A DNA stretch of 64,000 bases from the NCBI GenBank assembly GCA_000004985.1, contig GG738865.1; one strand, written 5' to 3'. Below, piece after piece: positions 13,347 to 54,024 of the stretch (its first letter is position 1; each line of letters begins with the position of its first letter). The notes under the pieces were generated by a model. That model ran no database searches. It was given only the letters and a program-made list of their open reading frames with translations, and had not been told where the DNA came from. Origin of the DNA: Naegleria gruberi. Taxonomy: Eukaryota. The position numbers were made by a program, and so were the translations under genes.

Positions 13347-13360
13347 TTTTCGCGCCAATT
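13347..13360. promoter_or_regulatory. E2F-like element TTTTCGCGCCAATT
   Basis: Exact TTTCGCGC core at 13348..13355, about 55 nt upstream of the kinesin ATG (13410). Confidence 0.45.
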
Positions 13361-13409: not shown

Positions 13410-15455
13410 ATGCCTCCACCTCCTCCTTCAACATCTTCATCATCAACACCAAGAGGAAAGGCAATGCGATCTGCTTTTCTACCACCCGAAACCCCATTAT
13501 CAACCAAAATTAGAAAACCAATCAGGGCCACTCCTTCTTCTTCAACTTCCTCATCGACCAATGGCACTAAGCTACAAGAACAAGAACAGCTACAAGACCA
13601 ATGTATTAAAGTGTACATTAGAATTCGTCCGAACGATGATCATGACCAATTACAAATTGAATTTCTCAACAATTCTTCAATTCAAGTCACGTGTAAAAAT
13701 CAAGAAAAGGCAGATACACCAAAAGTATTCCTATTTGATCAGGTTTTGGATGAAAATGTTTCTCAGCAACAAGTTTTTGATTTGATTGGTGTTCCAGTTG
13801 TTGAAGAACTTCTTCAGGGGTTCAATGCTTCCATTTTAGGTTATGGACATACAGGATCTGGTAAAACATTTACAATGGGAACTAATCTTCATGAGATTGC
13901 AGATTCCTTTGAGAGTGGCAATTTGCCTGCTGCTTGTGGTTTATTGCCACGAATTGTTGAAAGGTTGCTAAACAGGAAGAAAGTGGACGAACAATTAAGC
14001 TGCTCCTTATTTGAAATTTATAATGGAGGAGTTTATGATTTATTTGGAGAGGCCAGCAAAAAGTGTAAGGTCAAGTATTCAAACGGTGTGGATGTTGTGA
14101 CCAATGCTAAAAAGAAGCTTATTCATTCACTGTCTGATCTTTCTTCCATTTCGTCTGGTTTAAAAAGGAGACATCAAAGTGCAACTGGACAAAATCTATC
14201 CTCATCAAGATCACACTGCATCTTTAGATTGTTTATCACAACTGCAGACAATACTGAAAGATGCCTAAACATGGTTGACTTGGCTGGATCTGAACGTCAA
14301 AAAACTGCCAACATTCACGCTGATAAAATGTTACTAGATGAAGCAAATTACATTAATACTTCATTGACAGTTTTGAAAAGATGCATTGAAGCAGTCTATA
14401 ATAATCAATCCAATACTGATAAGAAGACACTAGTTCCATACAGGGAAGATAATCTTGCCTTATTGTTGCATTCAACTTTGGAAGGAAATTCAAAAACTTT
14501 CTTTATTGGAAATATTGGAACTGCAAGTGAATCGATATCAACTTTGAATTATGCACAAACGGCAAGAAAGATTAAAAAGATGACTAGCAAGTTGAGTTCA
14601 ATGTTGAAGAAGAAATCAGGAGGATTGTTTGAAGAGGAAATTGAAAAGTTAAAGAAAGAGTTGGAAGAAACTAAGGGTAAATTGGATGAGGAAAGAGATA
14701 GCAAGACCAAACATATTGAAGAACTCTCACAGAAAATTGCATTATTAGAAACTAAACAACAGGAAGCTAATGAAATTCTCAAACAATCGAATACCATTAT
14801 AGAAGAGATGCAAATCAGAGACGATTCTCTGAAAGAAATTTGCTCAGAAAAAGAAGAAATTATTTCAAATCTCTTTGAAGAATTGTCAAAAGCCAGAAAA
14901 GAAAGCGAGCTCTTGGAGAAGGACAATTCAACATTGAAGAGTGAAAATTCAATTCTTTTGGAAGCAATTGAAAATCAATGTGAAATCATTAGACAACGAG
15001 ATAAGGAACATGATTCAGCTTTCCAAAATTTGAAAGAGCAACTAGACGAATATCAAAAACAGTCATCCTCAAAGACTCTTACAATTCAAACTCTGCGAGA
15101 TGAATTGAAAAAAAAGGACAAAATCATACAGAGAAAATCTTCAACTACTGCAGAACAACTTTATCAGACCATTGAAAATTTACTTAAAACAATTGAAGAT
15201 CAAAAGAAGACAATTCACATGTTTTTGAATGGAACGATGGAAGTTGTGGATATTGATAAGGAAGAAGCTCATGATGGTAATTCATGTGATAGTGATGATG
15301 ATGATGAGAAGGTGATGTCTGATTCTCCAGTTGTGAAATCAAACAAACGAAAGGTAATTTCTCCACTCCAAAATATTGTCTATGAATCAACAGATGAAAA
15401 TAATGAACCAGAATGTAAATATTCAAAATCTGATTTATTAGAATATTTAAAATAA
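13410..15455 (+). CDS. Kinesin-like protein, N-terminal motor plus coiled-coil stalk (divergent/orphan family)
   Basis: Motor motifs IKVYIRIRP, GYGHTGSGKTFTMG (P-loop), SSRSHCIF (switch I) and VDLAGSERQ (switch II), then about 250 aa of coiled coil. Stop TAA at 15453..15455. Confidence 0.9.
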   Translation: MPPPPPSTSSSSTPRGKAMRSAFLPPETPLSTKIRKPIRATPSSSTSSSTNGTKLQEQEQLQDQCIKVYIRIRPNDDHDQLQIEFLNNSSIQVTCKNQEKADTPKVFLFDQVLDENVSQQQVFDLIGVPVVEELLQGFNASILGYGHTGSGKTFTMGTNLHEIADSFESGNLPAACGLLPRIVERLLNRKKVDEQLSCSLFEIYNGGVYDLFGEASKKCKVKYSNGVDVVTNAKKKLIHSLSDLSSISSGLKRRHQSATGQNLSSSRSHCIFRLFITTADNTERCLNMVDLAGSERQKTANIHADKMLLDEANYINTSLTVLKRCIEAVYNNQSNTDKKTLVPYREDNLALLLHSTLEGNSKTFFIGNIGTASESISTLNYAQTARKIKKMTSKLSSMLKKKSGGLFEEEIEKLKKELEETKGKLDEERDSKTKHIEELSQKIALLETKQQEANEILKQSNTIIEEMQIRDDSLKEICSEKEEIISNLFEELSKARKESELLEKDNSTLKSENSILLEAIENQCEIIRQRDKEHDSAFQNLKEQLDEYQKQSSSKTLTIQTLRDELKKKDKIIQRKSSTTAEQLYQTIENLLKTIEDQKKTIHMFLNGTMEVVDIDKEEAHDGNSCDSDDDDEKVMSDSPVVKSNKRKVISPLQNIVYESTDENNEPECKYSKSDLLEYLK

Positions 15456-15458
15456 AAA

Positions 15459-16529
15459 ATGGGAAATAGTCAACCAAGTAGAAATTTCACAAAAAATCAA
15501 TTAACAACACCAGTTTCCATTCCGATATTGTTTCTTATCGGAGATAAATCAAGTGGAAAGACGCAAACTATTCTTTCATATAACCACAGTTTCGAATTAA
15601 ACAGACGAACCCGACATTTAATTATTGAACTTTCGCGATGCATTCTTGGTTATGAAGCTCATCAAATTTCCAAGATTGACGAAAAACATTACAAAAGCAT
15701 TGCAAAAAAGTTAAAAAAAACTTGGAATTCCAAAAAGGAAAATTCTTTAAAATTCAACGCTGAAAATTTTAAAAGAAATTTAAATTATTTTGAAATTTCA
15801 ATTGAAAAACTTTTGGAAATTCTTGAAAAAATTGTAAAGGACGAATTTAGTACTGAATTGACCAATTCAGAAATTCAAATTATTGAACAAGCTCAACTAT
15901 TAATTCATCCATTTGCTTATTTCCTGGAAAATTGGTCAATTGGAACACAAACTAATCAATTAGTTGAATTATGTGCAATTCCAAGATCGAAATTATCACT
16001 TGATTCAGAAACATTTTCATGGATGAAAGAAAGAGAAAATTCTGTCGTTTTGGTTTTCATTTCATTGATTGGATGGTTGGATGAAACAGAGTATAATTTT
16101 CACAATTTTGATGAGATTGGAAAGGTGCTTGGACACGTTTCGAATAAGAAATTCGAATTTGTTTTTACAAAACCAGATCTGTTGTGGAAAATTCTGGCAA
16201 AAGGAGTGAAATATAAACATCAGGTGAAAGATACAAGAGCAGAGTTATTGGATATGGAAACTAAATACGGATTCGATCGAATAGTTAGCTCAATAATTTC
16301 AAAATACGAAACTGAACTACTGGCAGAATGCAATGATGCACAGAAACCTTTCAACTATCACATAGCAAGAACCAATTCATTGGACGAAATCTCAAAAGTG
16401 ATTGAAAGTGCCACTTCTGAATTTTCTCAATTTATTTCACCATTTATTATTCGAAAGACTTTATTCCAACCAGCACATTCCAATCAATTATTCTATTCAG
16501 ATCTATTAATATTGTGCATCTACCCTTAA
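15459..16529 (+). CDS. Divergent G-protein alpha-subunit-like protein with degenerate GTPase motifs
   Basis: MGNSQPS fits the N-myristoylation pattern MGxxxS. P-loop LFLIGDKSSGKTQTI. Overall G-alpha layout, but DVGGQR is replaced by LCAIPRSK and NKKD by TKPD (VVLVFISL..FEFVFTKPDLLWKIL). The ATG lies 3 nt after the kinesin stop. Confidence 0.55.
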   Translation: MGNSQPSRNFTKNQLTTPVSIPILFLIGDKSSGKTQTILSYNHSFELNRRTRHLIIELSRCILGYEAHQISKIDEKHYKSIAKKLKKTWNSKKENSLKFNAENFKRNLNYFEISIEKLLEILEKIVKDEFSTELTNSEIQIIEQAQLLIHPFAYFLENWSIGTQTNQLVELCAIPRSKLSLDSETFSWMKERENSVVLVFISLIGWLDETEYNFHNFDEIGKVLGHVSNKKFEFVFTKPDLLWKILAKGVKYKHQVKDTRAELLDMETKYGFDRIVSSIISKYETELLAECNDAQKPFNYHIARTNSLDEISKVIESATSEFSQFISPFIIRKTLFQPAHSNQLFYSDLLILCIYP

Positions 16530-16883: not shown

Positions 16884-19162
16884 ATGAAGTGGTTCTCTAC
16901 TACACATGTGTTTTGTTTGTTGTTGATTTTGTTGGTAGTGGTAGAAAGTGAGTTGACAATTCTGTCAAGCGAAGATTTGGCATTTGACAGTTCCAGGAGT
17001 AATCAGAGTGTTATTGAAAGGAAATTATTATCAATTGACGAAAATATAAAGAGAATCAATATTTCTAACACAAATTTCCTTCAAAATTTAGCAAATGACA
17101 ATTGGCAGGTAATCGCATCAACTCAATCACTAGTAATTGTTAGTTTACAGAATTTAACAACCATTGATGATGTTCTTCTACTCGCATCACGTAAACTAAT
17201 TAAAATTGGTGTACACACTATTATTGGAATAGACATTAGGTTTGTGGAGACGAAACTTCAACTAAACTCGACGAAACACTTCTACAAGACTGAGAGAATG
17301 GACAGAACATCTTCTGATTGTTGGATGGGAAATGTTTTCGAATATTTCGATGTTGTAATTTCAAGTGATTTGTTTCTTCCAATTCTCATAAGACAAAATC
17401 GAGATTGTTATGTCACAACCCCAGTGTTTAGAACATTAGATTATCAAGATTTGAGTTTAGTTTCATTTTCTCCCTTTGAAATAGTAATAGCAAACTCAAA
17501 AGCATCATTTAATGATCTTGTCACCTATCAATATGAAATAATGAACGACATGTTCAAAAATTTACAAATTTCACAACAAGTTTGTGAATCAACGACAAGT
17601 TCATACAAGGAACATGATTATTCAGTGTTGAGAATTGAACAATTTTTCACAAATATTTCAGCGGATGATTTTTTATTTATTGTGGAATATCATGCGTTGG
17701 ATAATTGGACACTAAATCAAACATTTACTAATTTGGCATTTGAAATGGTGTTAAATAGAACTGGATATAGTGTTGATAAGCTCAATTCTATGAAAAGATC
17801 ATTCTTTCCCACAAAATGTTACTCCTGTCTAACGTCATCTTGTATGTGGGAAGACAGAGCTAGTCCAGTAGCTTCAAATGCAGATGGTGTCAGTATTGGA
17901 GGTGGTATCTCTCTATTCATTGCATTATTTTTCTATTTTCCTTCTTTAATTCTATTCAGAAACAGAGAATCGGTCAAGATTCGTCTCATTGTTCCATACG
18001 TTTCGGTTCTGAGTCCAGTTTTCATCATGTTGATTCAGATTTTTCAACTTATCAAGCCGTGTTATTTGCTCTATCAGATTGCTGTTAATTTTCTATCCTG
18101 TTGGTCGATTATCATTTATTTTTTGATTTGTATTCGATTCGTCTTGTTGAGAAATATTTATACGCTAGTTCTGTATCTTAATGAGAGACATATCAAGATT
18201 TTAAAATGGTTAGTGAGTAAGAGAGTTGCAAGTATTGGATCCTTTCTGATGGGTGTGTTGATTGGATGTTTAGTTTCCCTCGTTCCCCTTGTTGGATTTT
18301 ATGATGTAAGTTGTTATTCGAATCCCAAACTAAACATCTTCTTTGAAAATAGGAATTCTTTGGAAATCGTGCTGCCATACAATGTGCTTTCATCACCTTT
18401 GGAATCACTGTAGCCATTGCAACATTATCATTACTAGCACTTGTCATTCATTTCCTCTTCAAGATTCCAATAATTTGGAGAAGAGGTCTATTATATATTC
18501 TATTCTTTGATGATCCATTTCAAATCAAGTTTGATATTTTATTCTTCTCACTCAATACTATAGTCATTACAGTTTATTTATTCACAGAGGCGAATCAGAA
18601 TTATGTTTACAGTATTTTTGCACCACTCCTATCTCACAATATTGGAATGTTGTATAGAGGAGGTTTAGTTTTGATTATTGAATGGTTTAAAACGATTTAT
18701 TTTAGAAAACAACTGAATATGACTGAGAAGGAGAAAGTGGACGAATTGGTTCTTCATTTGGAAAATCCAGAATTCTTCAATTTAATGAAGGAATTTGTTG
18801 CAAAGGAAACTTCACTTGAGAACTTGAAATTTTACGAAGAATTGAAACAAATAGAAAGAATGAGTCAATCTGACAAGAATCCCAAAATCAGTCACGAAGA
18901 AATGATTCGAATAAGGGACAAGTACTTTAAAGAAAATGTTCTATACGAATTGAATATTGGAGGCCAAACTAAGCAATCGTTTCACAATCTCGTAGCAACA
19001 GCTGCAAATCCAAATGAAGAAGTTCGCCTTAAAGATTTGAAATTCATTCTCGATGAAGAATTGATGGGAAATTTGAGTGATGCCTATTTGAGATTGAAAC
19101 AACAACCAGGTTTTAAGAGATGGAAAGTAGCTCACAATATTTATATTGAGGAAAAGGAATAG
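16884..19162 (+). CDS. Seven-transmembrane receptor-like protein with C-terminal RGS domain (7TM-RGS)
   Basis: Exons 16884..18305 and 18353..19162 (47-nt intron GTAAGT..AATAG, phase 0). Signal peptide MKWFSTTHVFCLLLILLVVVES, an ectodomain of about 330 aa, and seven hydrophobic segments. RGS box LENPEFFNLMKEFVAKETSLENLKFYEELKQ..IRDKYFKENVLYELNIG..SDAYLRLKQQPGFKRW. Confidence 0.8.
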
Positions 19163-25680: not shown

Positions 25681-26793
25681 ATGTCTACAAAAGGTGAATC
25701 GACCCGTTTGAAACCAAAGAATGCACCTCTCATTGAGGAAATTAGTGATGATGAAGAAGAAGTCACAATTGAAGAAGAAAAACCAAAGATTTCAAAGAGA
25801 CAAGAAAAGAGGGAGAGAAAGGCTTCAAGAATGATGGATCCTGCTGCTACTGAAGACAATGATTCCGAAGAATTAAAAGCCCTCAAAAGAGAAGTTCTCA
25901 AAAAAGCATTCAGCACATTTAAAGAGACTGAGGAAAAGAAACAAACAAACAAGTCAGCAATTGCCTACAACTTTATTGTCTTTGTTTTCATTGTCTCAGT
26001 GCTATCCTTATTTATTTTTCAAGCATTTATCATGAAGATTGCACCAACAGATGTAATTACTCCAAAAGAAACTCAGGAATTATTCTCTGGCAACAGCTCA
26101 ATCAAGGCCTTTAATATTCTATTAGGTATGGCATACTCTCCTAGACTTACTCTCCTCTATTTGGCTGTCACTGATAGACAAGTTATTGTGGATCTTTTTG
26201 ACAAGTCTGGATTAGTTTTTGGAAAGGACAAGAACAGCTATCTTGATTTGAGTCTTAAGGTGATGGGGTGTGCCATCTCTCCACGTTTATTCTTCATTTT
26301 ACAGAGTGCCAACGTGTTGATTGATAGACATTATGATCTTGTTGAGAGTGGAACAGTTTTTTCTGTAATTTCAGAACAACTTCAAGACTTTGGAGGTCTC
26401 TACTCTTTGGTTACTGACTCCTTCTGGAAGAATGACAAGACATTTGAGACTCTCTTCTTTTCATTCTCAATTTTCTGTCAAGTAGTATTTTTAATCTTTG
26501 ACTTTGCTTCGAGAATTGGATTTTTCAAGAGAGGAGTTAAATTCTTAATCATGCTTCTCCTTTGGGTTGTATTGAACTCTTACTTTATCCCTCCAATGAT
26601 TTTGTCTTACATGTTCAAGATTACCTATTTCATTCAGCCTGGATTAACTTTGATCATGTACTTGACTGAAAGTTTGGAAATCAAATACGAAAAGCAATTA
26701 CTCGATTCTCAAGAAAGAGAACAAAGAGAAGCCTTCTTAAAGGATGCTCGTGAAACTTTGAAAAAGGCTCAACAATCCAAAAAGCAAGAATAA
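25681..26793 (+). CDS. Hypothetical multi-pass membrane protein with acidic/basic N-terminal tail
   Basis: 370-aa ATG ORF with several hydrophobic segments and a C-terminal charged coil. No family recognised. Confidence 0.6.
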   Translation: MSTKGESTRLKPKNAPLIEEISDDEEEVTIEEEKPKISKRQEKRERKASRMMDPAATEDNDSEELKALKREVLKKAFSTFKETEEKKQTNKSAIAYNFIVFVFIVSVLSLFIFQAFIMKIAPTDVITPKETQELFSGNSSIKAFNILLGMAYSPRLTLLYLAVTDRQVIVDLFDKSGLVFGKDKNSYLDLSLKVMGCAISPRLFFILQSANVLIDRHYDLVESGTVFSVISEQLQDFGGLYSLVTDSFWKNDKTFETLFFSFSIFCQVVFLIFDFASRIGFFKRGVKFLIMLLLWVVLNSYFIPPMILSYMFKITYFIQPGLTLIMYLTESLEIKYEKQLLDSQEREQREAFLKDARETLKKAQQSKKQE

Positions 26794-27521: not shown

Positions 27522-30500
27522 TCACTCGACCAAATCATCAATTACTTTTTCATTCTTTTCAACAAATCCTGGAATGCTCTTTTCACCAATACCAATTTTG
27601 GTGAGCTCGTTAATGGATTTGAATGGTCTGTGTTCGATAATCTTTTCAGCCTTTTTATCACCAATAGTGACAAGCCTCTTCAATTCTTTAACTTCATTTG
27701 ATTCATCATTGATATATTCCAATATCTTTTCAGCAGTTGAGCTACTCTTTAAAGATGCTGGTTTGGATTTTGTTGCTGTCTTTTTCTTTGGTTTCTCCTC
27801 TTCTTCATCTTCATCGACCATCTTGTCGTTGTTAACTTGTTTCTCCTCTTCTTCATCTTTGTAAAGTGCCTTGGTTCTTTCTTCATTCTTGATTCTTCTC
27901 TTCAACTTTTCAACCTTTCGTTGGAGTTTTTCATTTGTTGGGAGAAGAGCAAGAGCCTTTTCCAAGAGTTCCAAAGAACCTCTCTCATTACCTTCCTTCT
28001 TTAAAATGGCTGCTTCCTTAATGTGATTTCTTGCAAGAGCCAGTTTGTCCTCTTTCGTCAACATTCTTCCAGAATCCAATGTCAAATCCATGGACTTGTT
28101 AATGGCAAAAGTGCTAATCTCCAGAAGAGCTGCATTATCGAAGAATACTGCACCAGCTTCCTGCTTTGGTTTCTTTCCTCTTCTGACGGCCTTTGGCACA
28201 AAACTATTCTTTTTCTCCTCTTCTTCCACTTGCTCTTCTTGTTCATTTTCAGAATCAGAATCTTCTGCTGAAGATCTCTTTCTTTTTGGAGCAGTATTCT
28301 TCTTGGTAGCTTGTCTTGTCTTTGGCTTTTCCTTTACAGGAGAAGGTACATTGGTCTTGGTGTAAATGATGGATTCTTCGATTTTAGGATCAAAGATAAT
28401 TCCTTCCAATGGTTGTACTGGTTGTATTTTAACAGGTTTAGGAAGTGTAGTCTCTGTTGTGATCTTTTCAAGTAATGGTGAAGGAGTAATAATGATTGGT
28501 TGAACTGCAGTTGATGTCGACAATTCGTTATTCTTCTTTTCGAATAAATCATCTGTTGTAACATTCTCCAAACCTCCCAATATAGTGTGGAAATCATCAA
28601 CAGGGAAGAGTGTAATATCCTTCTCCTTGATTGGGGAAATTGCTGAAAGATCCAACTCTGGAAGGGTTGACTTAGTTGACGAACCTGGCTTAGTAATACC
28701 TCTTGATTGCAAGCTCTTTAACCTTTGATTTCTTGTTGGAGTTTTGTTATTTACATGATTAGGTTTTTGATTAGATAAATTAGTTTTTGGTTTTTGATCT
28801 GACAATGTTTGAGGTGATGGTACTTTTCTTTGTGCACTCAGGTTTAAGGTTGACTTGGTGTTTATCTTAGAGAGTGAGGTTGTCTTAGATGCAGCTAGTG
28901 ATGGTGTATTGTTGCTAGGTGTGGAAGGAACTTGATTTTCCTTTCCTAATTGCTTGTTGGCAAATGATGGTGTCGAATTCATAGTGTTGGTATTAAGAGT
29001 AGAGAGTGGAGCTCTGTTGGACGATGTTGCTTTGAAAGTCTTAGCCAAAGGTGTAGTGGTAGTAGATACAGATATCACTTTGCTCATTACAATCTCTGGT
29101 GTTCTTGAGTCCTTCTTGTTTGAGGACTTTGGAGCTTGGAATGAAGAGGTTGTTGGTTTAGGAGTAGTTGTTGATTGCTTTTGGAAGAGAGGTGGAGTTG
29201 GGAGCGAATTCATTGTCTTGACACTCATTGGGGTAGAGGAGCTCTTCTTTGTGGAAGTGAGTGGAGTTGAACCAACACTCTTAGCAGAGCTAGGAGTTGA
29301 GCTAGTTGATTTGGATGGAGTAATCTCGTCTAAATCATTTAACATGGCACTCAATTTTCTCTTCATGTCCATAAAATCTGAACCATCAGAACTGACCATT
29401 GTATTAGATGAAGTATTCGAAGCTCCTGTAAGTGCCAAATGTTCCAACTTGGCCAATCTATCCAAAATCTCATCTTGCAACGAAATACTCCTCTTCAAAA
29501 TTGGATTCAAAATGCCTTGTTTCAAATCTTCTTGTGCCTTCTCCAAGTCTTCTTTTGTTGCAAAATTGTTTGGAGCTAAAAGCATCATTTGGTTAATATA
29601 ATCAGCTCCAGACAGAGATTTAGATGTGGAGGTGACTCCAATCTTCTTTTGCGACATTAATTTTTCCTTTTCCAATTGCAAAAGTTTCAATTGTGTATCC
29701 TTATCAGCTCCATATCCTATGTTTGCCATATTTTCCAAGGCTTTTCTTTCTTCCTCATTTTCAAAGTAGCTGGCATTTATCACAGGCTTATTTACAATGG
29801 ATTGTGATTTCATACCAAATCTCAGGGATTTGTGAGTATCTACATAGTGTTCAGTAAATGGAGAAACATTGACAACCATGATTGCTTGAGAAGATCCACC
29901 GAGAGAATCTTGTAACAATCGTGTAAGTTTGCTGTCACGATACGAAACCTTTTGATTCTTGGAATTTAATTGATCTACAACCTTTCTCAAGCTGAATAAG
30001 GATGTATTGATACTACTCGATTCTGCCAACCTAGCACCAGTATTACCAGTCTTTCTATTATCTTCAGAACCAGCCAAATCTATTAAATTAATCTTACCAG
30101 TGAGCCATTGACCTGATCTAGGATCCTTATTTTTCACAGTAAGTGTTAAAATAGCATGAGATCGAGAAGATTGCACGTTGAGTTTCGTTGAGGCAACCTT
30201 CCTATTCTTCATACCCACTTGATAAAATTCCTCACAAAATCCATCATAGGACGTTATTGATTTGATAGTTAGTCCCTTAACAATAATATTCTTACTCTTA
30301 TCTTCATGGAGAGGTAAATCCTTTCCAAGAGATGTGGTTGAATCTTTCGAAGAAACCAACAAGTCAAAGACCTTCTCGTTATAAATCTCCAAGTAGGAAA
30401 CAGATAATTTACAGAGTGGAGCAGAACTATCTGGGCCCTTTCTCCTTTCCACTTCAAATAATAATTGTTGTACTGTTCGAGGAATAAGGCCCATATTTTC

Positions 30501-30977
30501 CAAAGTTTCACCACCCTGCATGGTGTGAGTTTTACCACTTCCAGTCATACCATAGCAAAACACTGTTGTATTAAAACCATCAAAGAGAGTGTCCACTATT
30601 GGTATTATTTCGTTTTGGAAGATTTCATCTTGTGTGGAGGATTCATCATAGGTGGCATCGAATTCAAAACGAATTTCATCGCCAGGATTTCTTGGATCCT
30701 TCATGTACACTATATTGTTCAATGATTGTTGTTGTTGTTGTTCTGATTTGCCAACACGACATGTTTGAAAGCCTGATTTTTCAACTTCACTGGGCAGAAG
30801 AGGTCGGATACGAGAGGCAACTCTTACCTTTCTTCCACCTGTTGTTGATGTGTTATTATTACTAGTAGTGGTGGTGCTGTTGTTGGATATTGATAAACTT
30901 AATGATGGCGAATCGTTGTGTACCATAAAATTTGCCGAGCAACCACGAGGACTCTTTGCAATGCACTGTGTTGACAT
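27522..30977 (-). CDS. KIF22: Kinesin-10 chromokinesin (KIF22/Kid-like) with C-terminal helix-hairpin-helix
   Basis: Motor motifs FCYGMTGSGKTHTM, SSRSHAIL and LIDLAGSEDNRKTGNTGARLAESSSINTSLFSLRKVVDQL..YRDSKLTRLLQDSLGG, close to human KIF22. A long Ser/Thr/Pro-rich linker follows, then a TPR-like helix pair. The C-terminal LKRLVTIGDKKAEKIIEHRPFKSINELTKIGIGEKS is an HhH like that of Kid. The track start at 31001 is TTG; the first ATG is at 30975..30977. Confidence 0.88.
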   Translation of the reverse strand: MSTQCIAKSPRGCSANFMVHNDSPSLSLSISNNSTTTTSNNNTSTTGGRKVRVASRIRPLLPSEVEKSGFQTCRVGKSEQQQQQSLNNIVYMKDPRNPGDEIRFEFDATYDESSTQDEIFQNEIIPIVDTLFDGFNTTVFCYGMTGSGKTHTMQGGETLENMGLIPRTVQQLLFEVERRKGPDSSAPLCKLSVSYLEIYNEKVFDLLVSSKDSTTSLGKDLPLHEDKSKNIIVKGLTIKSITSYDGFCEEFYQVGMKNRKVASTKLNVQSSRSHAILTLTVKNKDPRSGQWLTGKINLIDLAGSEDNRKTGNTGARLAESSSINTSLFSLRKVVDQLNSKNQKVSYRDSKLTRLLQDSLGGSSQAIMVVNVSPFTEHYVDTHKSLRFGMKSQSIVNKPVINASYFENEEERKALENMANIGYGADKDTQLKLLQLEKEKLMSQKKIGVTSTSKSLSGADYINQMMLLAPNNFATKEDLEKAQEDLKQGILNPILKRSISLQDEILDRLAKLEHLALTGASNTSSNTMVSSDGSDFMDMKRKLSAMLNDLDEITPSKSTSSTPSSAKSVGSTPLTSTKKSSSTPMSVKTMNSLPTPPLFQKQSTTTPKPTTSSFQAPKSSNKKDSRTPEIVMSKVISVSTTTTPLAKTFKATSSNRAPLSTLNTNTMNSTPSFANKQLGKENQVPSTPSNNTPSLAASKTTSLSKINTKSTLNLSAQRKVPSPQTLSDQKPKTNLSNQKPNHVNNKTPTRNQRLKSLQSRGITKPGSSTKSTLPELDLSAISPIKEKDITLFPVDDFHTILGGLENVTTDDLFEKKNNELSTSTAVQPIIITPSPLLEKITTETTLPKPVKIQPVQPLEGIIFDPKIEESIIYTKTNVPSPVKEKPKTRQATKKNTAPKRKRSSAEDSDSENEQEEQVEEEEKKNSFVPKAVRRGKKPKQEAGAVFFDNAALLEISTFAINKSMDLTLDSGRMLTKEDKLALARNHIKEAAILKKEGNERGSLELLEKALALLPTNEKLQRKVEKLKRRIKNEERTKALYKDEEEEKQVNNDKMVDEDEEEEKPKKKTATKSKPASLKSSSTAEKILEYINDESNEVKELKRLVTIGDKKAEKIIEHRPFKSINELTKIGIGEKSIPGFVEKNEKVIDDLVE

Positions 30978-31017
30978 TTTTTTGGTTCTTATTTTCTTCA
31001 ACGGTTTGTGTTTTGAA

Positions 31018-40396: not shown

Positions 40397-41152
40397 TCAA
40401 GCAATAAGCCCTTGACTTTGCTTCCACTTTTGACCGTGAGAAGCTACTTGTGTTCTTGATCGTGTCTTGACATACTTTTCAGCAATGAGTTTCCAATTGT
40501 TACCACATGCCTCAAGACCTTCGAGGAAACGTTGATGTTCTTCCTCTGTCCACCATCCCTTATGACTACCATTCTTATTCTTGGCAGACAAATCACCCTT
40601 CACACTCGACTTGAGTCTCAGCTTACCAATCTTTTGTTTCGAGTAATTGTTAGCAATGTCAACTTCTTCATCGTCACCTTCAGATTCTTCACTTGGTGTC
40701 GTGGTATTTTGTTTGTTTCCTCTCTTAATACATGCAGAAGCAACCTTCTTGAGCACTTCAACATTTGGACATGTTGTTGATGAGACACTGGCAGTTGTTG
40801 TCGTTATGGTTGGATTCTTCTTCTGGAGCTCTTCCTTACTACTACTTGTCATTGTGGTTTCACTACTAGAAACACCACTCGAATGATGATCGTTGAATTG
40901 ACTAGGGGATGATGAATTACTACTTTTCACATCTGTGCCAATAATTGAGACATTGGAAGAATGGGAAAATCCAGATTCATCCATCAATACATTACTATTT
41001 GGAACGTTTCTAACTGGGCTCAATACAGGTGGTGCTGTAGTTGTAGTGGCTGTAATTGTTTTACAGGCAATTGGCACTGCACATGTCACTATCTGCTGAC
41101 TTGTGGCATGATTAAAAGCAACAATTCTTCCAGTAGTTGGGGAGGTATTCAA
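40397..41152 (-). CDS. Single-repeat Myb/SANT DNA-binding protein (SHAQKYF-like class), C-terminal part
   Basis: The C-terminal KGWWTEEEHQRFLEGLEACGNNWKLIAEKYVKTRSRTQVASHGQKWKQ is a Myb-like repeat. The ORF is open upstream to 41152 with no ATG until 40982..40984. It is in frame with ORF 41162..41776 across a single TAA. Confidence 0.75.
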   Translation of the reverse strand: MNTSPTTGRIVAFNHATSQQIVTCAVPIACKTITATTTTAPPVLSPVRNVPNSNVLMDESGFSHSSNVSIIGTDVKSSNSSSPSQFNDHHSSGVSSSETTMTSSSKEELQKKNPTITTTTASVSSTTCPNVEVLKKVASACIKRGNKQNTTTPSEESEGDDEEVDIANNYSKQKIGKLRLKSSVKGDLSAKNKNGSHKGWWTEEEHQRFLEGLEACGNNWKLIAEKYVKTRSRTQVASHGQKWKQSQGLIA

Positions 41153-41157
41153 AAGTG

Positions 41158-41179
41158 GGTGTTAAAGTGGTGTTAAAGT
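41158..41179. repeat. Perfect 11-bp tandem duplication (ggtgttaaagt x2)
   Basis: Read directly: 41158..41168 equals 41169..41179. The in-frame TAA (41162..41164, minus strand) lies inside the first copy. Confidence 0.95.
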
Positions 41180-41776
41180 TGGTGGTGGACTATTCACATG
41201 ATCCACTACTTTAGAGTTGGTTGTAAAATAATTTGGCTTGTTTACAGTACCTTCCCAAATGGAGTTTTCTCGATATAGTTGTTGAGGTGCTTGATGGGTT
41301 GGATAAACGGAGAATAACGAGGAGTAACGATTGCCAACAACGACATGATGACTCGTAGACGATGATGCAACAACAGGCATTATTGATTGGCTTGTGGTGG
41401 TGGAGTGAGAAAGGGATGGGAGTTGTTGTGGATGATGTTGCATCATCTGTGGTGGTTGTGTTGAAGAATAATTATTATTACATGATGAGGATTGACTGGT
41501 AGTAGGAATGGCTGTACAGGAAATGGTATTAGAGAAGGCATGTGTTGGTCTGGTTAACAAATTAGGATAGTTTGGTGTTGTTGTGGTTGCAGGATATATA
41601 TCTGAAAAGAGTGAAGAAATGGAAGGTAATTGAATAGTGGCAGAACTATTAGTACTGCTGCCACTGTCTTTTGTCAAATGATTCATTGGCTGAATGTATT
41701 GTTGTTGTTGTTGGCTTGCACTCATGAGTGGATTGGTGGTCATAGTATTCATTCTTGTCATGTTATCTGCCATCAT
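41162..41776 (-). CDS. Gln/Ser/Thr-rich ORF, probable N-terminal part of the Myb gene (or a separate low-complexity protein)
   Basis: ATG-initiated, 204 codons. It has the same frame and composition as the region downstream of its TAA stop. Confidence 0.5.
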   Translation of the reverse strand: MMADNMTRMNTMTTNPLMSASQQQQQYIQPMNHLTKDSGSSTNSSATIQLPSISSLFSDIYPATTTTPNYPNLLTRPTHAFSNTISCTAIPTTSQSSSCNNNYSSTQPPQMMQHHPQQLPSLSHSTTTSQSIMPVVASSSTSHHVVVGNRYSSLFSVYPTHQAPQQLYRENSIWEGTVNKPNYFTTNSKVVDHVNSPPPTLTPL

Positions 41777-45011: not shown

Positions 45012-45083
45012 TCCCGTGTGGTCCAATGGCTAAGATACCTGGCTCTCACCCAGGAGATCCGGGTTCAATTCCCGGCACGGGAG
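45012..45083 (+). tRNA. tRNA-Glu (anticodon CUC)
   Basis: 72-nt cloverleaf folded by hand. The acceptor TCCCGTG pairs with CACGGGA. The anticodon stem CCTGG pairs with CCAGG around loop CTCTCAC (anticodon CTC at 45045..45047). The T-arm CCGGG pairs with CCCGG around loop TTCAATT. Discriminator G. It is similar to eukaryotic tRNA-Glu. Confidence 0.93.
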
Positions 45084-52601: not shown

Positions 52602-53064
52602 CTGGACATGTAATGGAGCTGACTACAATTCATTTAGCTTAGAAAGAACAGCTCATTTTCTTCAAGTTTGACACAAAAGAAACACAATTTTACTGATGCT
52701 GTCATTCAAACAAAAAAAGAAAGCATTCATCCTGAATGATTAGAGCTTTACCATAGACTTCCAATAAAAAAAGTACGAATGCCAACCTTAAACCAGAAAA
52801 TTACTCTAGTGTTTGAAGTCGTTTTGTGGTATACCTGATGACATTTTTCCATTGAAGAGAACCTTATGTTTTTCAACAACAGAAGTTAACATTCAACCTA
52901 TTTCCTTCATTGATTTACAAATTGGTATAAACAAAGAACAAAAATGATTAGAAATGCACTTGTACAGGAATTGGTTCATTTGTCAACCACTTGAACTGTT
53001 TCTATTGTCAGATTTTCATTGTAAAATAACTTGTTTGCAATTTCCGCAAATCAAGAGAAAAAAA

Positions 53065-54024
53065 ATGAATGCAAAACTCACCATCAAACGCAAGCAATCA
53101 CAATCATCTTCATCGTCTGCATCAGCTTCAGCATCACAATCTTCGCAATCTTCAACAATAAATTCTTCCACAAGTTGTATACAAAATAGTCAAAATGATG
53201 AAGCAGATGATGATGATATTGTGGAGGTGGCTCCATCATTATCGGGAAGTAGTACATTGCACTTTCCGATTAGGACAATGGTATCAATTCATAGGAATGT
53301 AGTGCTACAGATTACATTATTTGACAAGTTGAGGGATAAATCTACATTAAAGTCTTCATTGGCTTCGACTTGGTTTAAAAAGGAGCACCTGGATGAGTTC
53401 TACACTTATTTGAAATACTTTTTGAAGAAACAAATTTATCAGGAAATCAAGTTTATTCCAACAGAACCAGGTAGGATTGAATTGAAAATAGAATTACCTC
53501 CAGAAAAGACGATTCAAGTAATTAAATGTAAAACCATTCAATTTACCTATGAGTGGAAAAAGACATATTCTAATTTTTTCATGTTGAGGAGAAAGGATAC
53601 ACAAGAGGAGTATGAAAGAGAATTATTGAAAGCACAACTTACAAGAAAGCCATCTGTGCCTATTCTTATTGAGGATGATCCACAAGGTCCAGTCAAACAC
53701 AATTTGGATTTAAGTGACGAGGAAACACCAAACAAGAAGCAAAAATCAATTCACAATTTGGATTTGAGTGATGAGGAAAATGTGAAACAAACCCCACCAA
53801 GAAAGAAAAAGAAACCAACTGTTATTATTGAGGATGACGATTCTTCATCATCTGAAGAGGAAGATGTAGAATTAAAGGAAGATATTGAGTTAAACTCTCC
53901 ACCTTTCAAAAAGTTTAAACAAAGTCTGGTATCTTGGCGGTACCAGCTACTTGTCTATTTGGAACCAAAGGAAAAGGATATTCTGGAATTGACAGGAGCT
54001 AAATCAAAAAGCAAATTCTTTTAA
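53065..54024 (+). CDS. Hypothetical acidic nuclear-type protein with SIM-like motifs
   Basis: Preferred ATG is 53065 (aaaaaaaATG); the alternative is 52954. Poly-Ser tract, three hydrophobic-acidic motifs (DDDDIVEV, VPILIEDD, TVIIEDDDSSSSEEED), a duplicated HNLDLSDEE and a KKKK tract. Confidence 0.55.
   Translation: MNAKLTIKRKQSQSSSSSASASASQSSQSSTINSSTSCIQNSQNDEADDDDIVEVAPSLSGSSTLHFPIRTMVSIHRNVVLQITLFDKLRDKSTLKSSLASTWFKKEHLDEFYTYLKYFLKKQIYQEIKFIPTEPGRIELKIELPPEKTIQVIKCKTIQFTYEWKKTYSNFFMLRRKDTQEEYERELLKAQLTRKPSVPILIEDDPQGPVKHNLDLSDEETPNKKQKSIHNLDLSDEENVKQTPPRKKKKPTVIIEDDDSSSSEEEDVELKEDIELNSPPFKKFKQSLVSWRYQLLVYLEPKEKDILELTGAKSKSKFF

What the first reader, a model, noticed from the sequence alone, without database searches (positions are those of the whole stretch)
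15441..15470. Kinesin and G-alpha-like ORFs are in the same frame, separated only by TAA-AAA
The sequence reads ...tta aaa TAA aaa ATG gga aat... The 681-codon kinesin ORF (frame of 13410) and the 356-codon ORF (frame of 15459) share a reading frame. Only one stop and one Lys codon lie between them, so there is no room for a terminator, a promoter or a separate 5' UTR.

Three explanations are possible. The downstream gene may be transcribed from a promoter inside the kinesin coding region. The two may be expressed from a dicistronic mRNA with reinitiation. Or stop-codon readthrough may give a kinesin with a G-alpha-like tail.

The MGNSQPS myristoylation-type start favours independent initiation. 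Shared frame alone has a 1 in 3 chance expectation.
Basis: seen in the sequence. Interest (0 to 1): 0.5.

Follow-up and report, generated by a model that had tools for sequence, protein, structure and literature searches.

The report
Two tightly packed Naegleria genes
In the amoeba Naegleria gruberi, a kinesin gene and an unannotated, very divergent G-alpha-like gene are only three bases apart, most likely as two separate genes whose messages overlap, because the kinesin stop codon sits inside its own poly(A) signal.

Summary
The kinesin ORF (13410-15455, 681 aa) is 100% identical to N. gruberi EFC44949.1. A 356-codon ORF (15459-16529) follows in the same frame, separated only by TAA-AAA.

The second ORF is real coding sequence that is absent from the N. 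gruberi proteome. It is a remote G-alpha relative with no Pfam hit. Its only close relative is an N. gruberi paralogue that stands alone and also begins MGNxQ.

"No room for a terminator" has an explanation. The stop codon lies inside the only AATAAA in 3.1 kb of the two ORFs. N. gruberi is documented to use such dual-use stop/poly(A) signals, with 3' UTRs of about 22 nt. The kinesin mRNA should therefore end inside codons 3-8 of the second ORF.

The last 40 nt of the kinesin ORF (10% GC) look like a gene leader. The downstream ATG has a typical A-rich start context.

Best reading (about 0.7): two monocistronic, overlapping transcripts, with the G-alpha-like gene's start site inside or at the end of the kinesin coding sequence. 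Readthrough (UAA-A context, no downstream structure), splicing (no GTAAGT donor) and reinitiation (mRNA predicted to end first) are disfavoured.

No transcript data or orthologous loci could be reached. This is an extreme case of a known kind of packing, of modest interest.

The parts
13410..15455 (+). Kinesin gene (681 aa; N-terminal motor at residues 75-388, coiled-coil stalk, acidic tail); N. gruberi EFC44949.1 / D2VDS2
   Evidence: ORF list; Pfam Kinesin 1.6e-67; 100% identity to P0001; frame-0 codon bias
15414..15417 (+). TGTA, a candidate upstream auxiliary element of the kinesin poly(A) site. It lies 34 nt upstream of the hexamer, slightly further from the predicted cleavage site than the 20-50 nt range used in the paper.
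   Evidence: Motif position; role of UGUA in N. gruberi from PMC11529991
15419..15458 (+). Last 13 kinesin codons, the stop and AAA: a 10%-GC stretch that looks like a gene leader and doubles as the 5' leader or core-promoter region of ORF2
   Evidence: 0 of 26,841 CDS 40-mers in the window are this AT-rich, against 7.2% of 40-mers from -60..-1 leaders
15451..15456 (+). AATAAA hexamer containing the kinesin stop codon TAA (15453-15455): a dual-use stop codon and poly(A) signal. It is the only AATAAA in kinesin plus ORF2.
   Evidence: AATAAA is about 17-fold depleted in sense CDS in the window. Dual-use stops in N. gruberi: PMC11529991
15466..15480 (+). Predicted (not observed) cleavage and polyadenylation zone of the kinesin mRNA, inside ORF2 codons 3-8
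   Evidence: Inference from a 15-20 nt signal-to-cleavage distance and a 22-nt median 3' UTR at dual-use stops (PMC11529991)
15513..15539 (+). Moderately T-rich stretch, a possible downstream U-rich element of the kinesin poly(A) site; weak evidence
   Evidence: Sequence; U-rich downstream elements in N. gruberi
15459..16529 (+). ORF2: unannotated 356-aa divergent G-alpha-like gene starting MGNSQ
   Evidence: not in the protein collection; remote G-alpha homology; coding signal; purifying selection against the paralogue; start context
15540..15563 (+). P-loop GDKSSGKT (residues 28-35)
   Evidence: SSGKTQTIL is invariant with the paralogue, with 5 synonymous and 0 non-synonymous differences
16167..16178 (+). 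TKPD (residues 237-240), the counterpart of the G-alpha NKxD guanine-specificity motif, within the invariant block FEFVFTKPDLL

Best explanation
These are two separate genes of Naegleria gruberi packed head-to-tail with a 3-nt spacer and expressed as two overlapping monocistronic mRNAs.

The kinesin mRNA needs no intergenic terminator. Its UAA stop is part of an AAUAAA poly(A) signal (a 'dual-use' stop), so cleavage and polyadenylation should occur about 15-25 nt further on, inside the first few codons of the downstream gene.

The downstream gene encodes a very divergent G-alpha-like P-loop protein. It has lost the switch II DxxGQ motif and is not in the current annotation. It is translated from its own AUG at 15459, on its own transcript. 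That transcript's start site must lie within, or at the very end of, the kinesin coding sequence. The AT-rich last ~40 nt of the kinesin ORF serve as its leader or core promoter. The shared reading frame is a coincidence.

Shown: the anatomy, the identity of both ORFs, coding selection on ORF2, the AATAAA/stop overlap and its uniqueness in the two ORFs, the start context, and the conserved stand-alone N-terminus of the paralogue.

Inferred: the position of the kinesin poly(A) site, the ORF2 transcription start, and that ORF2 is currently expressed.
For: (1) The stop is embedded in AATAAA at 15451-15456. It is the only AATAAA in 3.1 kb of kinesin plus ORF2. The hexamer occurs 3 times in 32 kb of sense CDS (0.09/kb, against 1.55/kb expected).

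(2) Direct RNA sequencing of N. gruberi shows the following: AAUAAA is the poly(A) signal, 15-20 nt upstream of cleavage; median 3' UTR is 39 nt; 11-13% of stop codons overlap AAUAAA, with a median 3' UTR of 22 nt; hexamer identity is the main determinant (PMC11529991). In this window 5 of 26 ORFs have such stops.

(3) The ORF2 ATG context scores in the 99.3rd percentile of 2,443 ATGs and resembles other gene starts. The next in-frame ATGs are at codons 189 and 266, beyond the P-loop.

(4) The paralogue (P0121; N. gruberi D2VDP2) starts MGNKQ after an ...aaaaaaaa leader. It sits 180 nt from a divergently oriented gene, so it is a stand-alone protein with the same N-terminus.

(5) ORF2 has been under purifying selection. 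It is 356 stop-free codons long (P about 1.7e-13) with frame-0 codon bias. Of 81 residues identical to the paralogue, 30 use different codons, and the motif blocks have 0 non-synonymous against 4-5 synonymous changes.

(6) The last 40 nt of the kinesin ORF are 10% GC, which is leader-like and unlike CDS.

(7) Heterolobosea have conventional monocistronic genome architecture, at about 2 genes per directon (bioRxiv 10.64898/2026.07.29.740908).
Against: No transcript, cap or poly(A)-site data for this locus could be reached. No promoter motif is known or was found in the kinesin 3' coding region.

The AATAAA may be just a by-product of ORF2's A-rich leader: 5 of 25 gene starts in the window have AATAAA at -8 to -22. 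Any ORF2 transcript that starts upstream of 15451 would itself carry this signal near its cap.

The candidate UGUA lies slightly outside the usual distance, and the downstream U-rich stretch is weak.

ORF2 is missing from the annotated proteome and has no orthologue in about 15 billion proteins. Neither its expression nor the age of the juxtaposition can therefore be shown.
Confidence: 0.7

Rival explanations
1. ORF2 is a stranded, currently silent copy, or the junction is very recent or artefactual. A recent deletion, or an assembly or sequencing error in the A-rich run, may have removed the spacer and promoter. Alternatively, a point change may have created or shifted the TAA. In either case the ORF is still intact but is no longer independently expressed.
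For: ORF2 is not in the N. gruberi proteome or any other protein set. The spacer is 30-100 times shorter than the other spacers in the window. No second strain or species was available to confirm the junction. A metagenomic copy of the paralogue carries a roughly 105-nt frame-shifting deletion, so members of this small family can decay.
Against: The ORF is fully intact and aligns end to end with the paralogue, including the last residues. The motif blocks show purifying selection. The start context and the MGN start are intact. The AT-rich, leader-like 40 nt upstream is preserved. Absence from the annotation is expected anyway for a gene with no intergenic space.
Confidence: 0.13
2. There is a dicistronic kinesin-ORF2 mRNA with termination-reinitiation. 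Ribosomes that finish the kinesin ORF at UAA would resume at the AUG 3 nt downstream.
For: The stop and start codons are only 3 nt apart, a geometry compatible with reinitiation. There is no obvious room for a promoter.
Against: The AAUAAA at the stop should end most kinesin transcripts before ORF2. From established knowledge, reinitiation after a 681-codon ORF needs a ribosome-tethering element such as the calicivirus TURBS (UGGGA motif upstream). No TGGGA occurs in the 100 nt upstream (sequence). No significant RNA structure is present. Heterolobosea show monocistronic architecture. The paralogue is expressed from a stand-alone locus.
Confidence: 0.07
3. A spliced fusion. An intron spanning the stop would join the kinesin to the G-alpha-like domain. 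One candidate is 15415-15513 (99 nt, in frame).
For: 44 in-frame GT..AG pairs spanning the stop keep the reading frame open. This includes GTAAAT(15415)...CCAG(15513), which would retain the P-loop.
Against: All recognisable introns in the window use GTAAGT or GTATGT donors. None is present near the kinesin end; the candidates are GTAAAT or GTAATT. The 'intron' would be open coding sequence. It would also delete the MGNxQ N-terminus that is conserved with the paralogue. The annotated kinesin model is the unspliced 681-aa ORF.
Confidence: 0.03
4. Programmed stop-codon readthrough yields a 1,039-aa kinesin with a G-alpha-like tail.
For: The two ORFs share a frame with one stop between them.
Against: UAA followed by A is the commonest termination context in the window: 13 of 26 stops are TAA-A. 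From established knowledge it is a poor readthrough context; leaky stops are usually UGA or UAG followed by C or CARYYA. There is no stimulatory structure downstream (z = -1.09). The mRNA is predicted to be cleaved about 15-25 nt after the stop. A fusion would bury the conserved N-terminal Gly2. The shared frame has a 1/3 prior.
Confidence: 0.02

Closest known systems
[quoted passage not shown]
   Same: The UAA stop lies inside AAUAAA. An ultrashort 3' UTR is expected. The organism is one where 11-13% of stops are reported to do this.
   Different: Here the next gene's start codon follows after 3 nt. The predicted cleavage site therefore falls inside the downstream coding sequence, and the two mRNAs must overlap. 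The cleavage site was not observed for this gene.
Overlapping transcription of adjacent genes in highly compacted eukaryotic genomes (microsporidia, nucleomorphs); cited from my own knowledge of the literature, not retrieved here
   Same: Transcription start or end signals lie inside neighbouring coding sequence, and adjacent mRNAs overlap.
   Different: N. gruberi is not globally that compact. Other same-strand spacers in the window are 106-354 nt, so this is a local outlier rather than a genome-wide regime.
Heterotrimeric G-protein alpha subunits (Pfam PF00503)
   Same: Similar length (356 aa, against 354 for GNAI1). Gly2 at the N-terminus. A P-loop near residue 30. About 165 residues lie between the P-loop and strand beta4, leaving room for a helical insert. 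The C-terminal half is homologous (hhalign 96.4%). Counterparts of NKxD (TKPD) and TCAT (IART) are present.
   Different: It fails the Pfam model. Switch II DVGGQ is replaced by ELCAIPRS, and no recognisable switch I RxxTxGI is present. It is probably not a conventional GTPase switch. The family is restricted to two N. gruberi paralogues.
Termination-reinitiation cassettes (calicivirus TURBS, influenza B M1/BM2 UAAUG)
   Same: The stop and the next start are within a few nucleotides.
   Different: There is no upstream UGGGA-type tethering motif, the first ORF is cellular and 681 codons long, and the mRNA is predicted to end before ORF2.
C. elegans SL1-type operons, where the upstream poly(A) site abuts the downstream trans-splice site (from my own knowledge)
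   Same: There is essentially no intercistronic space, and 3'-end formation of gene 1 is next to the 5' end of gene 2.
   Different: That arrangement requires spliced-leader trans-splicing. This is not known in Heterolobosea, whose genome architecture is monocistronic.

Membership tests
G-alpha (Pfam PF00503) | Match to the family HMM above the gathering score | tested here: not met
   No Pfam hit at E <= 0.01. At E <= 10 only noise appears (THOC7, AAA_22, and similar). PDB sequence and profile searches were empty.
G-alpha (Pfam PF00503) | Detectable homology to bona fide G-alpha proteins | tested here: met
   phmmer hit to N. gruberi D2VG73 (E 4e-4 library-wide; pairwise 2e-12), which is Pfam G-alpha 3.1e-42. 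hhalign against [GNAI1 + D2VG73] gives 96.4%, E 1.3e-9, over residues 195-352.
G-alpha (Pfam PF00503) | G1 P-loop GxxxxGK[ST] | tested here: met
   GDKSSGKT at residues 28-35.
G-alpha (Pfam PF00503) | Switch II DxxGQ, with the catalytic Gln | tested here: not met
   The alignment to D2VG73 places ELCAIPRS opposite TAGGKKMERRRW. There is no Gly-Gly-Gln. The paralogue lacks it too.
G-alpha (Pfam PF00503) | NKxD and TCAT guanine-recognition motifs | tested here: inconclusive
   TKPD and HIART occupy the aligned positions. They are degenerate but colinear.
G-alpha (Pfam PF00503) | All-helical domain inserted into the Ras-like fold | tested here: inconclusive
   The spacing fits, and the AF2 secondary structure for residues 47-158 is helical. 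However, the models are unreliable (pLDDT 40.5 and 38.5), so no fold search was run.
Dual-use stop codon / poly(A) signal (N. gruberi type) | AAUAAA overlapping the stop codon | tested here: met
   AATAAA at 15451-15456 contains TAA at 15453-15455.
Dual-use stop codon / poly(A) signal (N. gruberi type) | The hexamer is otherwise avoided in the coding sequence | tested here: met
   There is no other AATAAA in kinesin or ORF2. Density is 0.09/kb in sense CDS, against 1.55/kb expected.
Dual-use stop codon / poly(A) signal (N. gruberi type) | Upstream UGUA and downstream U-rich auxiliary elements | tested here: inconclusive
   TGTA at 15414 lies slightly beyond the 20-50 nt range from the predicted cleavage site. 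A modest T-rich stretch lies at 15513-15539.
Dual-use stop codon / poly(A) signal (N. gruberi type) | Mapped cleavage site about 15-25 nt after the stop | not testable with these tools
   The supplementary 3'-UTR tables of PMC11529991 are not held, and there is no access to reads.
Programmed stop-codon readthrough | Leaky stop context and/or a downstream stimulatory structure | tested here: not met
   UAA-A is the window's commonest termination context. The downstream 120 nt fold no better than shuffles (z = -1.09).
Termination-reinitiation | An mRNA covering both ORFs, plus an upstream ribosome-tethering motif | tested here: not met
   No TGGGA occurs in the 100 nt upstream. The AAUAAA at the stop predicts 3'-end formation before ORF2. 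Transcript coverage itself is not testable here.
Polycistronic transcription unit or operon | Lineage with co-transcribed gene clusters resolved by trans-splicing | tested here: not met
   Literature only. Heterolobosea have about 2 genes per directon and no heavy tail, which is conventional monocistronic architecture.

The most novel reading that the evidence does not exclude
In a free-living heterolobosean with otherwise monocistronic genes, a fraction of kinesin transcripts bypass the stop-embedded poly(A) signal. The G-alpha-like protein would then be made from this dicistronic mRNA by termination-reinitiation at UAA-AAA-AUG. Its synthesis would be coupled to that of a kinesin that is probably cell-cycle regulated.
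Probability: 0.06. Interest if true: 0.65.

Novelty: new member of a known kind. Interest (0 to 1): 0.3.

Why it matters
This would be the tightest kind of head-to-tail gene packing in N. gruberi. The 3'-end signal of one gene, the stop codon, the leader and the start codon of the next gene all lie within about 15 nt.

It is a natural test case for two questions. One is how Naegleria places a promoter inside coding sequence. The other is how it ignores a cap-proximal AAUAAA.

It also adds a gene missing from the reference annotation: a degenerate G-alpha-like protein that lacks switch II and lies next to a multi-pass membrane protein with an RGS domain. This shows that annotation pipelines can drop real genes that have no intergenic space.

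None of this changes current understanding. It extends the dual-use stop codon phenomenon already described for this organism.

Tried and rejected
**Searches that led nowhere**
- Word-indexed protein searches with ORF2 alone found nothing. With the 4-sequence alignment they returned only D2VG73.
- Exact look-ups of the kinesin and of D2VDP2 in the contig index failed, so the N. gruberi scaffold annotation around the locus could not be read.
- The metagenome scan for ORF2 relatives found none.
- A 681-aa metagenomic kinesin (P0012) proved unrelated and lies at a contig end.
- As a result, no orthologous junction could be compared.

**Structure**
- AlphaFold2 without an alignment and with 4 sequences gave unusable models (pLDDT 40.5 and 38.5). 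Fold searches were therefore not run.
- PDB sequence and profile searches were empty.

**Literature**
- No N. gruberi promoter, TSS or 5'-UTR description was found.
- The 3'-UTR tables of PMC11529991 are not held.

**Ideas considered and rejected**
- An intron across the stop: there is no GTAAGT or GTATGT donor.
- Retroposition origin of ORF2: the apparent 'intron' difference from the paralogue is instead a deletion in the metagenomic copy.
- Treating the AATAAA as a purpose-built signal: it may be a by-product of the A-rich leader, since 5 of 25 starts have one. It should still act on the kinesin pre-mRNA.
Full report
**Observation**

The window reads ...gaa tat tta aaa TAA aaa ATG gga aat agt... 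at 15441-15470. The ORF list gives 13410..15455 (681 aa) and 15459..16529 (356 aa) on the + strand. Both starts are divisible by 3, so the two ORFs share a frame with one stop and one Lys codon between them. The description is correct.

**Organism and the first ORF**

The window is AT-rich (31-39% GC). ORF1 is a kinesin: Pfam Kinesin E 1.6e-67, with the motor at residues 75-388. It is 100% identical over its full length to 'kinesin-1' of Naegleria gruberi (EFC44949.1, D2VDS2) on an 820-kb scaffold. The PPR-repeat ORF just upstream is EFC44948.1. The closest non-self kinesins are only about 31% identical (KIF15/KIF3-like), so no close orthologue is known.

**The second ORF**

- ORF2 is not in the 15-billion-protein collection, either exactly or as any detectable fragment. 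It is therefore absent from the N. gruberi proteome.
- It is nonetheless coding. It has 356 stop-free codons where off-frame stops occur at 7.9% per codon (P about 1.7e-13). Its codon log-likelihood is positive in frame 0 and negative in frames 1 and 2, as for the kinesin and unlike the flanking intergenic DNA.
- Pfam and PDB sequence searches find nothing.
- An exhaustive HMMER scan of 1.84 billion representatives finds only two relatives. One is P0121 (E 6e-16), whose 90% cluster contains N. gruberi D2VDP2/EFC44932.1, on the same scaffold but outside the window. The other is N. gruberi D2VG73 (E 4e-4), a clear G-alpha (Pfam 3.1e-42).
- A profile of ORF2 plus its paralogue matches a [human GNAI1 + D2VG73] profile with 96.4% probability (E 1.3e-9) over ORF2 residues 195-352.
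- The P-loop GDKSSGKT is present. TKPD and HIART stand where G-alpha has NKxD and TCAT. Switch II DVGGQ is replaced by ELCAIPRS.
- 'G-alpha-like' is therefore fair as remote homology. The protein fails the family model and lacks a catalytic hallmark.
- AlphaFold models were too poor to use.
- Comparison with the paralogue shows purifying selection. Of 81 identical residues, 30 use different codons. The blocks SSGKTQTIL and FEFVFTKPDLL have 4-5 synonymous and 0 non-synonymous differences.

**Where the downstream protein starts**

- The paralogue on metagenome contig L001 is a stand-alone gene, 180 nt from a divergently oriented neighbour.
- It begins ...ttaaaaaaaaATGGGAAAC (MGNKQ). ORF2 begins ...aaaataaaaaATGGGAAAT (MGNSQ). 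The N-terminus and the A-rich leader are thus family features.
- A position-weight score built from the other 25 gene starts puts the 15459 ATG in the 99.3rd percentile of all 2,443 ATGs in the window. The next in-frame ATGs are at codons 189 and 266, past the P-loop.
- A free Gly2 argues for initiation at this AUG rather than a fusion.
- As a knowledge-based caveat, Pro at position 6 does not fit the usual N-myristoylation pattern, whereas the paralogue (Ala6-Thr7) does.

**How the kinesin message can end without an intergenic region**

The TAA lies inside AATAAA (15451-15456). In this window AATAAA occurs 3 times in 32 kb of sense-strand coding sequence, 0.09/kb against 1.55/kb expected from composition. 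The copy at the stop is the only one in the 3.1 kb of kinesin plus ORF2.

Direct RNA sequencing of N. gruberi (PMC11529991) established the following:
- AAUAAA is the poly(A) signal and sits 15-20 nt upstream of cleavage.
- The median 3' UTR is 39 nt.
- 11-13% of stop codons overlap AAUAAA ('dual-use' stops), with a median 3' UTR of 22 nt.
- Hexamer identity explains most of the site choice, helped by upstream UGUA and downstream U-rich elements.

In this window 5 of 26 ORFs have such stops. A TGTA lies at 15414 and a modest T-rich stretch at 15513-15539. The kinesin mRNA is therefore predicted to be cleaved at about 15466-15480, inside ORF2 codons 3-8. This is an inference, not an observation.

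**The junction as a leader**

The last 40 nt before the ATG (15419-15458) are 10% GC. None of 26,841 40-mers inside other ORFs is that AT-rich, whereas 7.2% of 40-mers from the -60..-1 leaders of other genes are. Compositionally, the last 13 kinesin codons are ORF2's leader read in frame.

AATAAA at -8 to -22 is present upstream of 5 of 25 start codons. The hexamer may therefore be a by-product of A-rich leaders. It also follows that N. gruberi genes evidently tolerate it close to their 5' ends.

Same-strand spacers elsewhere in the window are 106-354 nt. The 3-nt spacer is the genuinely unusual feature. The shared frame has a prior of 1/3.

**Rivals**

- Readthrough. TAA-A is the commonest termination context in the window, at 13 of 26 stops. 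The 120 nt after the stop fold no better than shuffles (z = -1.09). The mRNA should end before ORF2.
- Splicing. 44 in-frame GT..AG pairs span the stop. However, all recognisable introns in the window use GTAAGT or GTATGT, and none is available here. A splice would also remove the conserved N-terminus.
- Dicistronic reinitiation. The geometry fits. However, there is no TGGGA-type tethering motif upstream, the poly(A) signal should truncate the transcript, and Heterolobosea have conventional monocistronic architecture.
- Silent or recently stranded copy, or an assembly error in the A-run. This cannot be excluded without a second genome or RNA data. The intact ORF, the intact start context and the selection signature argue against long-term silence.

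**Verdict**

The most likely reading (about 0.7) is two separate genes with overlapping monocistronic mRNAs. The kinesin has a dual-use stop/poly(A) signal. The downstream gene is an unannotated, degenerate G-alpha-like gene whose transcription must start within or at the end of the kinesin coding sequence.

This is an extreme example of a phenomenon already described for this organism, plus a missed gene. It is of modest interest. The existing long-read RNA datasets for N. gruberi would settle it at once.

Noticed in passing
window 16884-19162 (+): The 509-aa multi-pass membrane ORF (16884..18413) and the RGS-domain ORF (18647..19162, Pfam RGS 2.7e-08) are probably one gene. A 47-nt GTAAGT...TAG intron at 18306-18352 would join them into a roughly 744-aa membrane protein with a C-terminal RGS domain. 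The divergent G-alpha-like gene therefore lies directly upstream of a TM-RGS gene.
   Followed up: partly
window 41080-41260 (-), stop at about 41162: A 204-aa ORF and a 251-aa ORF ending in a Myb domain are open in the same frame, with a single TAA between them. The TAA lies in an 11-nt tandem duplication (ACTTTAACACC x2). This looks like a small indel or repeat, or an unrecognised short intron within one gene.
   Followed up: partly
window, 5 gene starts (6164, 10556-, 15459, 16884, 25681): AATAAA, the N. gruberi poly(A) hexamer, occurs 8-22 nt upstream of 5 of 25 start codons, although it is about 17-fold depleted inside coding sequence. Either 5' UTRs are only a few nucleotides long, or cap-proximal signals are ignored.
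   Followed up: partly
window 13347-13356 (+), and upstream of the starts at 25681, 49306 and 57151: E2F-like GC boxes (TTTTCGCGCC, TTGGCGCC, TTCCCGCC, TGGCGGGAAA) lie 30-70 nt upstream of several genes, including the kinesin. They were seen by eye and may point to cell-cycle regulation. This was not tested statistically.
   Followed up: no
L001 2150-2320: The metagenomic copy of the ORF2 paralogue (P0121) lacks about 105 nt relative to N. gruberi D2VDP2. The missing segment encodes IISSII...HIARANLLNE, which contains the TCAT-like motif, and the frame shifts after it. This suggests a decayed or misassembled copy.
   Followed up: partly
window 27522-31001 (-): A second, unrelated kinesin gene of 1,159 aa (Pfam Kinesin 1.4e-95, plus a weak C-terminal HHH_3 match) lies about 12 kb downstream on the other strand.
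   Followed up: no
window 45012-45083 (+): tRNA-Glu (CTC). This is the only Rfam or ARAGORN hit in the window.
   Followed up: yes
window 52954-54024 (+): Another ORF of exactly 356 aa has no Pfam hit and no exact entry in the protein collection. It is unrelated to ORF2 by tblastn.
   Followed up: no
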